Below are positions 31,184-54,038 of a stretch of 64,000 nucleotides of DNA, in pieces; position 1 is the stretch's first letter; the number at the start of each line of letters is the position of its first letter. Below the pieces are notes generated by a model. The model was not told the DNA's origin. It made no database searches and saw only the letters and a list, made by a program, of their open reading frames with translations. A program made the translations under genes and the position numbers. Source of the DNA: Botryllus schlosseri (Eukaryota); contig CM119371.1 in NCBI GenBank assembly GCA_051294905.1, forward strand, positions 25,856,001 through 25,920,000, in the 5' to 3' direction.

Positions 31184-31925
31184 AAATATAGGACAGAAAC
31201 AAATAAAAAAATATTTTTTAATGCGCAAAAATATTTAGCAGGCAAAACGATCCAGCGGTAGGCGTCGAAGTAGTGGCATAACGTCGGTACTGTTGTTTTT
31301 CTATTTATGTTTCGTTACTCATGCTATCGGGTACGCAATATGCTTCGGATTGCGTCGAAGTAGCCATCGTTGGTTGTCACGTAGAAGTAGAAGTGACGCC
31401 GTATATTTCAACTCCGTTACAAACAGAAGGTGCGCTTTCCAAAATCCCTCGTGGCATTGTTAATTGGTACAGATTTCGAAAATATATTCACTTGCCGTTC
31501 TATACGGGGACTAGCTATTTGATCCGATATCTATGACAATGTCACTCGTAAAACTATTTCTACTTAACGCTCGCAACTCGCTAAAGTACTTAGTTTTGCC
31601 TGGACTGTAGGGTAGATGCGAATGTTTCAACTTGGATTCCGCTAGTGATCCTATTGGAAAGCTATGCAACAAGCTCAAATGCGACGCATAGCTGCTGGCT
31701 AGATCTAGACTTGAAATACTGTTGTCTGTATGTAGGTTTATCATTTCAGTTGAAATACGTGAGAAATATGAAGCGTTCAAGCCCTCAAGTTTCCGTCATA
31801 AACTCTATAACCTACCGATAATTATCATGAATGCAGAGCGCTTATGCTGATAATCACATCGGTAATACATTCGATTTAATACAGCAAACCTAGCGGTATC
31901 AACAGAGAAGATCCGCCACTATCCT
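31184..31925 (+). mobile_element. Partial U6-carrying unit (right part), truncated by assembly gap
   Basis: Matches the next unit at offset 2186; ends at ...CACTATCCT. Confidence 0.85.
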
Positions 31926-32644
31926 CGCCAGCTGCGACCTGCCGATCTTCTCTGTTGCTGTCCGATTTCAGCGGCCAATCAGAAGCCAAAAGCTCTTCCA
32001 ATTGTTCTGATTTTCTCGTCCGGGACTGTATCTTTCCGCTCACTAGAGACAACCAATCAGAAGCAAGAAGCTCTTCTAATTTTTCTGATTTTCTCGTCCG
32101 GGACTCTATATCTTTCTGATCACTCTCGCAAAGCAATCGGAAGCCAAAAATTCGCAGACATTATTAGATTAATGTATCCAATGACAAGTTGAGGGCAGTA
32201 GACGACCTCGTTTCGGCTCAAGTTTCGGCTGCATTGCACTGTTGAAGTGCGGGCTAACGAATGCGTTGCATGTTCATAAGACAAGCTTGACGCCACCACT
32301 CTCGCCAAACATCGCGGTAACGGTAATAGTCCAGTTTGTGTCTACCGGAGGCTATGTGTCGGTGCATAAGTCACTATCTGGCTATGGTTCATTCAATCTA
32401 AGCTACGTATCTGTCGTTGGTTTATTAATATTACTGGTTGTACCTATTTCTGGATGCGACATAGGTATCGGAACAGGTCAGATTGCCTTCGTAGCCTCGT
32501 TGCAGGTTACGTGTTAGTCATGGATGTCACGGGTAGCCGACGTCGGAAAGCGACATTATCATAATTTGGTGGTTCTGTACCGCTGGTTTAGGTAACTCTT
32601 CTCGACGACGAGTGTATTTCCTGCGGCTAATCATGAAAGTGCGT

Positions 32645-32956
32645 GATCCTCGGCCTGCGTGGCGTACCGGTAAGAACGCAGTGCCGGCAGCCGTTGTGAC
32701 AATTCCCGGCGTCATTCACCTGCCAATATGTGCGACTCGCGACAAAGGCAACGAATCGAGTTATGTAGCGTTAATTTAGGTATTTCGTCTCTGCGAGGAG
32801 CGTATTACCTGCAGTTAATGATCCTCGGACTGAGTCGGCTGTAAGTAGCACAGCACACCGTTCCGACAGGAACGCAGTGCCGGCCGCCATTTAAAAACTA
32901 ACGGTGTCATTTACCTGGCGATATATGCGAGTCGCGACAAAGGCAACGAATCGAAT
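32645..32956. repeat. Diverged tandem duplication (~196-bp period) upstream of U6 in each unit
   Basis: GAACGCAGTGCCGGC and CGCGACAAAGGCAACGAATCGA each occur twice per unit. Confidence 0.8.
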
Positions 32957-33164
32957 TCACTTGAATGCACAAATATATATACTATTTGAACGATTTTGCA
33001 TGATATATCCATGTGCTATCGGCTAGGAACGGTACTGATAGGCTCGAAGAGGTGCCAAATCTATTTTTTTCATTCCGAAGGAAATATTAAAAACAATTTA
33101 ATTGTTCACACGGGTTTCGAGGTTGACTACGTCGAATTTGTTACGGCATTGTGACGTCATCTGC

Positions 33165-33204
33165 TCACCGTAAATATTATTATTTTATTTTTCGTCCATA
33201 TAAA
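33165..33204 (+). promoter_or_regulatory. Type-3 Pol III promoter of U6 (PSE-like element and TATA)
   Basis: TCACCGTAAAT at about -64 resembles the metazoan PSE; CATATAAA at about -30. Repeated in front of the other two U6 copies. Confidence 0.8.
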
Positions 33205-52476: not shown

Positions 52477-52482
52477 TCAGGT

Positions 52483-53176
52483 TATCATAATTTGGTGGTT
52501 CTGTACCGCTGGTTTAGGTAACTCTTCTCGACGACGAGTGTATTTCCTGCGGCTAATCATGAAAGTGCGTGATCCTCGGCCTGCGTGGCGTACCGGTAAG
52601 AACGCAGTGCCGGCAGCCGTTGTGACAATTCCCGGCGTCATTCACCTGCCAATATGTGCGACTCGCGACAAAGGCAACGAATCGAGTTATGTAGCGTTAA
52701 TTTAGGTATTTCGTCTCTGCGAGGAGCGTATTACCTGCAGTTAATGATCCTCGGACTGAGTCGGCTGTAAGTAGCACAGCACACCGTTCCGACAGGAACG
52801 CAGTGCCGGCCGCCATTTAAAAACTAACGGTGTCATTTACCTGGCGATATATGCGAGTCGCGACAAAGGCAACGAATCGAATTCACTTGAATGCACAAAT
52901 ATATATACTATTTGAACGATTTTGCATGATATATCCATGTGCTATCGGCTAGGAACGGTACTGATAGGCTCGAAGAGGTGCCAAATCTATTTTTTTTCAT
53001 TCCGAAGGAAATATTAAAAACAATTTAATTGTTCACACGGGTTTCGAGGTTGACTACGTCGAATTTGTTACGGCATTGTGACGTCATCTGCTCACCGTAA
53101 ATATTATTATTTTATTTTTCGTCCATATAAATTATTACGTGAACATGCTCAAAACGTACTCGCTTCGGCGGTACAC

Positions 53177-53212
<36 letters not shown>

Positions 53213-54038
53213 GGCCCCTGCGCAAGGATGACACGCAAAATCGTGAAGCGTCCAATCTTTTTTGTTTTTCCTGCAACGAGCATAAAAATTGGGCCTAAAT
53301 ATAGGACAGAAACAAATAAAAAAATATTTTTTAATGCGCAAAAATATTTAGCAGGCAAAACGATCCAGCGGTAGGCGTCGAAGTAGTGGCATAACGTCGG
53401 TACTGTTGTTTTTCTATTTATGTTTCGTTACTCATGCTATCGGGTACGCAATATGCTTCGGATTGCGTCGAAGTAGCCATCGTTGGTTGTCACGTAGAAG
53501 TAGAAGTGACGCCGTATATTTCAACTCCGTTACAAACAGAAGGTGCGCTTTCCAAAATCCCTCGTGGCATTGTTAATTGGTACAGATTTCGAAAATATAT
53601 TCACTTGCCGTTCTATACGGGGACTAGCTATTTGATCCGATATCTATGACAATGTCACTCGTAAAACTATTTCTACTTAACGCTCGCAACTCGCTAAAGT
53701 ACTTAGTTTTGCCTGGACTGTAGGGTAGATGCGAATGTTTCAACTTGGATTCCGCTAGTGATCCTATTGGAAAGCTATGCAACAAGCTCAAATGCGACGC
53801 ATAGCTGCTGGCTAGATCTAGACTTGAAATACTGTTGTCTGTATGTAGGTTTATCATTTCAGTTGAAATACGTGAGAAATATGAAGCGTTCAAGCCCTCA
53901 AGTTTCCGTCATAAACTCTATAACCTACCGATAATTATCATGAATGCAGAGCGCTTATGCTGATAATCACATCGGTAATACATTCGATTTAATACAGCAA
54001 ACCTAGCGGTATCAACAGAGAAGATCCGCCACTATCCT
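52483..54038 (+). mobile_element. U6-carrying unit lacking its first ~625 bp; last unit of the array
   Basis: Matches 32557-34111 (one extra T in a homopolymer); similarity ends exactly at ...CACTATCCT (54038), then unique sequence follows. Confidence 0.85.
53156..53263 (+). ncRNA. U6: U6 snRNA gene, intact
   Basis: Same sequence as 33229-33336, with the same upstream promoter. Confidence 0.97.

What the first reader, a model, noticed from the sequence alone, without database searches (positions are those of the whole stretch)
31184..54038. The U6 gene repeat unit is itself a Dada-ended mobile element: a transposon that carries its own family's target gene
Seen: each 2186-bp unit starts with ~370 bp homologous (inverted) to one end of the autonomous Dada. 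It finishes with the inverted homologue of the other end: AGGATAGTGGCGGATCTTCTCTGTTG on the minus strand vs AGGATACCTGCGGATGTTCTCTGTTG. Units abut across a 6-bp spacer. The array stops exactly at the terminal ATCCT (54038). The cargo is a full U6 gene with PSE/TATA and terminator, in the same orientation relative to the ends as the transposase in the autonomous element. One such U6 has been hit by the autonomous element. Known: Dada elements target U6, U1 and tRNA genes. Inference: a non-autonomous mini-Dada mobilises and amplifies U6 genes, either creating new landing pads and replacing destroyed U6 copies or acting as bait/decoy for its helper. I do not know of a described example, but cannot search.
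Basis: partly seen in the sequence, partly recalled or inferred. Interest (0 to 1): 0.93.

Follow-up and report, generated by a model that had tools for sequence, protein, structure and literature searches.

The report
U6 gene inside Dada-ended tandem repeat
A short tandem repeat carrying complete U6 splicing-RNA genes is bounded, base for base, by the end signals of a Dada-U6 transposon, the kind that inserts into U6 genes, but it occurs at only one place in this genome, so its ability to move is inferred and not shown.

Summary
The 2,186-bp repeat is 2,180 bp plus a 6-bp spacer. It starts with a Dada right-end homologue and ends with a 26-nt Dada left-end homologue. Both 9-nt sub-terminal repeats lie 14 nt from the tips, the same spacing seen at U6|Dada junctions. 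The repeat stops exactly at the tip (54038), against a motif that resembles the Dada target. Its cargo is a full U6 gene (Rfam 110 bits) with a promoter shared with other U6 loci. An autonomous Dada-U6 has hit one cargo U6 after nucleotide 70.

- As assembled there is one complete unit and three partial units, beside a 100-N gap.
- The autonomous element is an exact tandem pair (2 x 8,499 bp).
- Its right junction is non-canonical, and about 1.44 kb of the array is missing there.
- Homology to the Dada end runs about 540 bp, not 370.

Against the mobility claim: the unit and both of its end types occur nowhere else in the 495-Mb assembly, and no empty site could be tested.

Verdict: most likely a non-autonomous Dada-U6 derivative that captured a U6 gene and was multiplied in tandem by transposase-linked events. 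The bait or landing-pad role is speculation. I found no published case, but Repbase and Dfam could not be searched.

The parts
31084..31183 (.). 100-N assembly gap directly left of the array. The left boundary and the true copy number are unknown.
31184..31925 (+). 3' 742 bp of a unit, cut by the gap. It ends in the right tip ...CAGAGAAGATCCGCCACTATCCT.
31926..31931 (.). 6-bp spacer CGCCAG between units
31932..34111 (+). The only complete 2,180-bp unit. It runs from the left tip CTGCGACCTGCCGATCTTCTCTG to the right tip ...TATCCT.
31936..32476 (+). Part of the unit homologous, inverted, to the right-end region of the autonomous Dada (88% then 70%). It includes 78-bp sub-terminal repeats.
32370..32579 (+). 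Part of the unit that is 82-92% identical to sequence beside the interior of a Dada relative on contig C17
33166..33228 (+). U6 promoter: a PSE-like motif CACCGTAAATA... and TATAAAT at about -30. Both are shared with U6 loci on C6 and C13.
33229..33335 (+). Intact cargo U6 snRNA gene, followed by a T-run
   Evidence: (110.3 bits)
34112..34117 (.). 6-bp spacer CGCCAG
34118..35484 (+). Unit interrupted in its U6 (35415-35484, nucleotides 1-70, ending GCGCAA)
35485..43977 (-). Autonomous Dada-U6 copy 1 (8,493 bp). Left tip AGGATACCTGCGGATGTTCTCTG; right end ...CAGAGAAGATCGGCAGGTCATCA.
38060..41818 (-). 1,252-aa transposase ORF with DUF6729, DDE and DxxH motifs and CCCC and CCHC zinc-finger patterns
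43978..43983 (.). Hexamer TCAGGT between the two autonomous copies
43984..52476 (-). Autonomous Dada-U6 copy 2, 100% identical to copy 1 (ORF 46559-50317)
52477..52482 (.). The same hexamer TCAGGT after copy 2
52483..54038 (+). 5'-truncated unit lacking its first 625 bp. It holds an intact U6 at 53156-53262 and ends exactly at the right tip.
54039..54049 (-). Flank that reads CACCTGCGCAC|AGGATAG on the minus strand. It matches the canonical junction CCCCTGCGCAA|AGGATAC at 9 of 11 positions.
   Evidence: No significant U6 homology further out.

Best explanation
The 2,186-bp repeat is a non-autonomous derivative of a Dada-U6 transposon: a 2,180-bp element plus a 6-bp hexamer.

Composition. It keeps about 540-650 bp of the transposase-upstream end of a Dada relative and only about 26 nt of the other end. 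The rest of its interior is replaced. The replacement includes a host-type U6 gene with promoter and terminator, lying in the direction the transposase gene would have.

Origin of the cargo (inferred). Because the parent element lives inside U6 genes, the cargo was probably picked up during faulty gap repair after excision.

Arrival and amplification (inferred from geometry). The element's AGGATA-type tip was joined by transposase to a target-like site, CCT|GCGCAC. Further copies were added head to tail. The U6-like half-target stays intact after an insertion and Dada ends mimic the target, so the same site can be hit again. The non-target hexamer travelled with the element's other end, as reported for some fish Dada families.

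Later events. An autonomous Dada-U6 inserted into one cargo U6 after nucleotide 70 and doubled in the same way. About 1.44 kb to its right was lost in an aberrant event.

What is shown: the anatomy, the homologies and the confinement to a single locus. What is inferred: the capture route, the tandem-insertion mechanism and any present-day mobility.
For: - Geometry. 9-mer, 14 nt, 6 nt, 14 nt, 9-mer is identical at unit|unit, U6|Dada and Dada|Dada junctions. There are 4 matches against 0.00 expected in 100 shuffles. The same 14-nt spacing holds at a complete Dada with both U6 flanks and GCGCAA duplications on C13. It matches Kojima & Jurka 2013 (section 4 read).
- Shared end. The 18 nt ACCTGCCGATCTTCTCTG are identical between the unit's left end and the autonomous right end, while nearby sequence is 70-88% identical.
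- Conserved tip. The AGGATA tip is conserved at 14 of the 18 places that one search listed.
- Array end. The array stops exactly at the tip. The flank matches the canonical target junction at 9 of 11 fixed positions. My estimate of the chance is about 1e-4.
- Autonomous pair. The duplicated block begins exactly at the left tip and ends 6 bp past the right end, and the same hexamer follows both copies. This is the same pattern as in the unit array.
- Published behaviour. Tandem Dada copies separated by the duplication hexamer or by nothing, one-ended flanks, and hexamers carried along with the element are all described. A tandem Dada|GCGCAA|Dada junction also appears in a metagenome contig, L121 (read by eye).
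- DNA-level cargo. The U6 flanks are homologous to other U6 loci over about 77 bp upstream and 120-130 bp downstream.
- Transposase. The D-68-D spacing equals that of Dada-U6_DR, and DxxH, CCCC and CCHC patterns are present.
Against: - No copy of the unit, of its AGGATAGTGG-type tip (3 of 18 pattern hits, all at this locus), or of the ACCTGCCG-type end (4 of 15 pattern hits, all at this locus) exists elsewhere in the assembly.
- The spacer CGCCAG differs from the outer right flank GTGCGC, so a simple target-duplication model fails.
- The left flank is hidden by the gap.
- The flank is not a recognisable U6 gene. Rfam found nothing, and 156 of 1,000 shuffles reached the alignment score.
- Units are about 100% identical, so unequal crossing-over or assembly polishing cannot be separated from repeated insertion.
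- Twenty metagenome junction loci showed no internal intact U6, and the unit's tip was absent from metagenome contigs.
- The structure could not be checked against reads.
Confidence: 0.62

Rival explanations
1. Built in place and never moved as a U6 carrier. An ordinary Dada inserted at the target-like site. Its interior was later replaced by U6-containing DNA through ectopic repair or conversion at this locus. The unit was then multiplied locally. The tips are inherited from that single insertion.
For: - The unit is confined to one locus.
- Copies are near-identical.
- Other Dada fragments lie 25-55 kb away on the same contig.
Against: The head-to-tail junctions have breakpoints exactly at both tips with a 6-bp gap, and there is no shared flanking hexamer that could drive unequal exchange. 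At least the first duplication therefore needs transposase-type cutting of the unit's ends.
Confidence: 0.22
2. Ordinary host U6 tandem array whose spacer holds a relic of a tandem Dada pair (the right-end remnant, a hexamer and a 26-nt left-end remnant). The relic was spread through the array by concerted evolution.
For: - A tandem repeat can be phased in any way.
- Only 26 nt of one end survive.
- Dada elements are known inside U6 arrays.
Against: - The array ends exactly at the tip. By chance that is about 1 in 2,186.
- The adjacent flank matches the target junction at 9 of 11 positions.
- No U6 half-gene remnants occur in the unit.
- The other promoter-bearing U6 loci seen in this genome are dispersed singles, not arrays.
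Confidence: 0.08
3. Assembly artefact. Repeat collapse or a mis-join next to the gap created the apparent tandem units, the exact 8.5-kb duplication and the odd right junction.
For: - A 100-N gap abuts the array.
- The copies are 100% identical.
Against: - The junctions do not lie in shared repeats.
- Junction geometry is biologically exact at four places.
- An artefact would not create Dada tips around a U6 gene.
Confidence: 0.06

Closest known systems
Dada-U6 DNA transposons, including the internally deleted Dada-U6N1_DR (Kojima & Jurka 2013, PMC3706591, sections 4 and 12 read; Kojima 2022, PMC8869645, section 13 and passages read)
   Same: - Insertion after U6 nucleotide 70 with GCGCAA.
- 9-nt sub-terminal repeats TCTTCTCTG and CAGAGAAGA at a fixed distance from the tips, mirrored in U6 itself.
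- Transposase antisense to U6.
- Non-autonomous derivatives that share only the ends.
- One-ended non-target flanks.
   Different: - The unit's interior is a complete, promoter-bearing copy of the family's own target gene. Neither paper mentions such cargo in the parts I read or searched.
- The unit is known from one locus only.
Tandem Dada-U1A/U1B insertions in zebrafish, and hexamers carried with Dada-tA and Dada-tY (same two papers)
   Same: - Head-to-tail copies separated by 6 bp or by nothing.
- A flanking hexamer that is not the target's own, sometimes on one side only.
   Different: Here the spacers (CGCCAG, TCAGGT) are neither the target hexamer nor a known ancestral one. The repeated element also carries a gene.
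Pack-MULEs and other gene-capturing DNA transposons (recalled, not checked here)
   Same: A non-autonomous element of a related transposase group with host DNA between its ends.
   Different: Those usually carry fragments of protein-coding genes and insert broadly. Here the cargo is a whole Pol III gene that is also the insertion target.
Cassandra retroelements carrying 5S RNA sequences, and integrating elements that carry a tRNA 3' end to restore their target (recalled, not checked here)
   Same: A mobile element that carries a small-RNA gene or a copy of its own target.
   Different: The mobility mechanisms are different. Those systems are retroelements or site-specific recombinases, and none is a DDE DNA transposon carrying a full target gene.

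Membership tests
Dada-U6 (autonomous element 35485-43977) | Inserted in U6 between nucleotides 1-70 and 65-104, with a 6-bp GCGCAA or GCGAAA duplication | tested here: inconclusive
   The left junction is exact: U6 nucleotides 1-70 ending GCGCAA, then AGGATACC. The right side has no GCGCAA and no U6 3' half.
Dada-U6 (autonomous element) | [quoted passage not shown] | tested here: met
   The right end has CAGAGAAGA plus 14 nt. The left end has 14 nt plus TGTTCTCTG (8 of 9). The spacing equals that in U6.
Dada-U6 (autonomous element) | Transposase with a DDE triad, DxxH after the second D, an N-terminal CCCC finger and a C-terminal CCHC finger | tested here: met
   Pattern search only: D489, D557 (68 residues apart, as D567 and D635 in Dada-U6_DR), DVWH at 583, ESFH at 748, C-x4-C-x31-C-x2-C at 310, and C-x2-C-x8-H-x8-C at 1203. 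Pfam gives only DUF6729. No alignment to a named Dada protein was made.
Dada-U6 (autonomous element) | Transposase encoded opposite to U6 (true of most families) | tested here: met
   ORF on the - strand, U6 on the + strand.
Non-autonomous Dada-U6 derivative (the 2,180-bp unit) | Both ends homologous to those of an autonomous partner, with the same sub-terminal geometry | tested here: met
   There are 18 identical nt and about 540 bp of homology at one end, and 22 of 26 nt at the other.
Non-autonomous Dada-U6 derivative (the unit) | Several copies at different sites, each ending at the same tips | tested here: not met
   All copies lie in this one array. Metagenome contigs gave 0 hits.
Non-autonomous Dada-U6 derivative (the unit) | Flanked by a target duplication in a U6 gene | tested here: inconclusive
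   The right flank matches the canonical junction at 9 of 11 positions but is not a recognisable U6. The left flank is in the gap.
Functional U6 snRNA gene (the cargo) | Full-length U6 with an upstream PSE and TATA box and a T-run terminator | tested here: met
   110.3 bits over model positions 1-105. The PSE-like motif and the TATA box at about -30 are shared with two other loci. The T-run is visible. Expression was not tested.

The most novel reading that the evidence does not exclude
The host's main U6 variant is kept and multiplied as cargo of a Dada-derived element. A target-specific transposon would then be making new copies of its own insertion site. Each new unit replaces a U6 gene that Dada destroys and offers the autonomous element a fresh landing site, a self-renewing niche shared by host gene and parasite. 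Consistent facts: 2 of the 3 top-scoring U6 genes in the assembly are in this array. Its U6 sequence is the one carried by most dispersed truncated copies. One of the three cargo copies has already been hit.
Probability: 0.15. Interest if true: 0.9.

Novelty: new variant of a known kind. Interest (0 to 1): 0.66.

Why it matters
Dada elements are the only known DNA transposons with strict targets in small-RNA genes, and how they persist without exhausting or harming those genes is an open question. An element of this family that carries a working copy of its own target would show a route by which target and parasite multiply together. It would also show a way for snRNA gene arrays to arise through transposase action. 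The exact 9+14+6+14+9 geometry shared by U6|Dada, Dada|Dada and unit|unit junctions gives a concrete, testable model for target recognition by end mimicry, and for the tandem Dada arrays already noted in fish. If the ends work with the 1,252-aa protein, the unit is a natural 2.2-kb mini-Dada vector.

Tried and rejected
- Decayed U6 in the right flank. An end-free alignment looked suggestive (score 8 against a shuffle mean of 2.45, maximum 9). Rfam found nothing, and an alignment anchored at the junction was reached by 156 of 1,000 shuffles. Only the 11 nt next to the tip are kept as evidence.
- Left of the gap (30600-31083). A GGCCCCTGGATAC string looked like a U6|Dada relic. BLAST and Rfam gave nothing significant, so it was dropped.
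- U6 half-gene remnants inside the unit. None were found beyond the two 11-nt matches at the sub-terminal repeats.
- The hexamer TCAGGT, or its complement, elsewhere in the unit as a source of the autonomous element's flank: absent.
- Simple duplication models for the spacer. Rejected, because the outer flank GTGCGC differs from the spacer CGCCAG.
- Public runs. The shares are not used as evidence.
- Metagenome scans. The unit tip gave 0 hits. The generic junction pattern gave 110 loci, about 20 of them U6|Dada junctions by eye. I passed 20 of the 110 to Rfam: 19 held only the interrupted U6 and none an extra intact U6. This is a weak negative, because the flanks are short.
- Literature. Four searches found no report of Dada with snRNA cargo. 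Repbase and Dfam were not searchable. The supplementary figures S2-S4 of PMC3706591 were not opened.
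Full report
**What is in the sequence**

The window is C1:25856001-25920000 of a 495-Mb eukaryotic assembly. A 100-N gap (31084-31183) lies directly left of the feature.

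Self-BLAST shows a 2,186-bp period. As assembled, the layout is:
- the last 742 bp of a unit (31184-31925);
- one complete unit (31932-34111);
- a unit that stops inside its U6 gene (34118-35484);
- two 100% identical copies of an 8,499-bp block (35485-43983 and 43984-52482);
- a unit lacking its first 625 bp (52483-54038).

Rfam finds U6 at 33229-33335 and 53156-53262 (110.3 bits each). The broken copy starts at 35415.

**The ends**

Kojima & Jurka 2013 (PMC3706591, sections 4 and 12 read) define Dada-U6 by three features:
- insertion between U6 nucleotides 1-70 and 65-104 with a GCGCAA or GCGAAA duplication;
- no terminal inverted repeats, but 9-nt sub-terminal repeats TCTTCTCTG and CAGAGAAGA;

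Here the pattern CAGAGAAGA-N34-TCTTCTCTG (up to 2 mismatches) occurs 4 times against 0.00 in 100 shuffles. All four split as 9+14+6+14+9:
- unit|unit (twice): ...TCCGCCACTATCCT | CGCCAG | CTGCGACCTGCCGA...
- U6|autonomous element: ...TTAGCATGGCCCCT | GCGCAA | AGGATACCTGCGGA...
- autonomous|autonomous: ...TCGGCAGGTCATCA | TCAGGT | AGGATACCTGCGGA...

A complete Dada of another family on C13, with both U6 halves and GCGCAA on both sides, has the same 14-nt spacing at its right end.

The unit's left end shares 18 identical nucleotides (ACCTGCCGATCTTCTCTG) with the autonomous right end. Homology then continues at 88% (unit 5-218) and 70% (unit 225-545). Unit 439-648 also matches, at 82-92%, sequence lying beside the interior of a Dada relative on C17.

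The unit's right end shares only its last 26 nt with the autonomous left end, at 22 of 26 positions. This includes the AGGATA tip, which is conserved at 14 of the 18 places listed genome-wide.

**The cargo**

The U6 gene is complete. It is preceded by a PSE-like motif and a TATA box at about -30 that it shares with U6 loci on C6 and C13, and it is followed by a T-run. Its flanks are homologous to other U6 loci for about 77 bp upstream and 120-130 bp downstream. It is therefore a DNA-level copy of a gene, not an RNA-derived pseudogene.

Of the 48 U6 matches in the assembly (45 over the cut-off), only three reach 110.3 bits. Two of those are in this array and one is on C7.

Two U6 variants exist. 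The array's variant is the one carried by most dispersed truncated copies.

**The autonomous element**

It is 8,493 bp long and begins exactly after U6 nucleotide 70. On the strand opposite to U6 it encodes an open 1,252-aa protein.

The protein has Pfam DUF6729. By pattern search it also has:
- D489 and D557, 68 residues apart as in Dada-U6_DR;
- DVWH, ESFH, and CCCC and CCHC cysteine patterns.

Its right side is not canonical. The hexamer TCAGGT follows both copies. After the second copy the sequence resumes at the position equivalent to 32557 in the next unit, so about 1.44 kb of the array is missing. The missing stretch includes the U6 3' half, a unit end, the spacer and 625 bp of the next unit.

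No other full copy of this element was listed in the genome. Its right-end region occurs only at this locus.

**Is the unit mobile?**

Against mobility:
- With the whole unit as query, matches outside this locus are limited to U6 itself, short U6 flanks at three loci and two short pieces on C17.
- The unit's right 782 bp matches only this locus, one U6 flank on C17, and short pieces of about 45-90 bp elsewhere: 35 to one small stretch that looks like a dispersed repeat, and one to another stretch just right of the array (40 matches in all).
- The AGGATAGTGG-type tip accounts for 3 of 18 pattern hits, all at this locus.
- The ACCTGCCG-type end accounts for 4 of 15 pattern hits, all at this locus.
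- Metagenome contigs hold no copy of the tip.

For transposase action on these ends:
- The head-to-tail junctions break exactly at both tips with a 6-bp gap. No shared outer hexamer exists that could drive unequal exchange.
- The array stops exactly at the AGGATA-type tip. The adjoining flank reads CACCTGCGCAC|AGGATAG on the minus strand, against the canonical CCCCTGCGCAA|AGGATAC. That is 9 of 11 positions at a fixed place, and my estimate of the chance is about 1e-4. Beyond those 11 nt there is no significant U6 similarity.
- The autonomous pair shows the same pattern: a canonical junction at the AGGATA tip, and a non-target hexamer repeated after each copy.

**Proposed mechanism (inference)**

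Kojima 2022 (PMC8869645, section 13 read) reports that Dada proteins seem to bind mainly on one side of the site. It also reports that some families carry a foreign hexamer with them, sometimes on one side only. The 2013 paper reports tandem Dada-U1 copies separated by the hexamer or by nothing, and one-ended flanks.

After an insertion, the U6 5' half with CAGAGAAGA-N14-GCGCAA remains intact, so the same site can be hit again. If the element's other end brings its own hexamer, repeated hits give: target | element+hexamer | element+hexamer, and so on. Both arrays here have exactly this form.

One metagenome contig (L121) shows a Dada|GCGCAA|Dada junction (read by eye), so tandem Dada-U6 copies occur elsewhere.

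The U6 cargo most likely entered through faulty repair while the parent element sat among U6 genes. Nothing here tests that step.

**Rivals**

- The cargo may have been acquired in place and the unit may never have moved with it. This fits the confinement to a single locus, but it still needs transposase-type cuts to make the tandem junctions.
- An ordinary U6 array holding a relic Dada-pair junction in its spacer. This is disfavoured by the exact array end and the target-like flank, and by the absence of U6 half-gene remnants in the unit.
- Misassembly next to the gap. This cannot be excluded without reads, but it would not create Dada tips around a U6 gene.

**Comparison with what is known, and novelty**

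The autonomous element is a member of Dada-U6 by target site, end geometry, orientation and protein motifs, with an aberrant right flank of a kind already described.

The unit works like a non-autonomous Dada-U6, but it fails the dispersed-copy criterion. I file it as a probable derivative, not a proven mobile family.

I found no mention of snRNA cargo in either Kojima paper (text searches) or in four library searches. Repbase and Dfam could not be searched, and the 2013 supplementary figures were not opened.

A second note reports a U6 retrocopy inside a retroelement. Neither describes U6 cargo between Dada ends.

**Verdict**

This is a new variant of a known kind. It is of real interest to transposon biology, but it rests on a single locus beside an assembly gap.

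Noticed in passing
L007 (C6:29265683-29265790), L009 (C13:3941305-3941412); also L020, L026, L027: A second U6 variant has an extra G exactly at the Dada insertion site (CCCCTgGCGCAA) and a different 3' end. Both promoter-bearing U6 loci outside the array that share the array's PSE motif are of this type. It could be an excision footprint or an insertion-resistant allele.
   Followed up: partly
window 59261-59709, 63764-64000, about 135 (- strand); L013, L015: A dispersed repeat family carries the same PSE-like motif (CCACCGTAAATACTATTTT...) as the U6 promoter. Within the window part of it forms a 146-bp tandem repeat. In two other loci a 3'-truncated U6 copy lies about 95 bp downstream of the motif, inside this repeat.
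   Followed up: no
window 35760-38000 and 38770-39820 (autonomous element coordinates about 277-2520, 3287-3598, 4105-4334): These stretches of the autonomous element match, at 74-94% identity, a repeat family of roughly 2.4 kb with at least about 30 dispersed copies that lack the Dada left tip. It is either a nested or captured foreign element, or a deletion family without recognisable ends.
   Followed up: no
G000:C17:457981-459493 (L036, L008): A 1.3-kb Dada left-end derivative (83-92% identical) with a non-U6 left flank sits next to a U6 3' part. The downstream 120 bp of that U6 part is 89-93% identical to the cargo's downstream flank. This locus may be a relative of the source of the captured U6.
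   Followed up: partly
G000:C12:19678023-19681103 (L028): A non-autonomous Dada of about 680 bp is inserted in a promoter-bearing U6 gene. Its left junction is canonical and its right junction is degraded (U6 resumes at about nucleotide 80).
   Followed up: partly
window 42226-42930 (- strand), and the copy 8,499 bp further on: A 234-aa ORF lies upstream of the transposase gene inside the autonomous element. It has no Pfam match and may be spurious.
   Followed up: partly
L121 (metagenome contig, junction at locus position 3001): A tandem Dada-U6-type junction, right end | GCGCAA | left end, in an unrelated environmental eukaryote.
   Followed up: no
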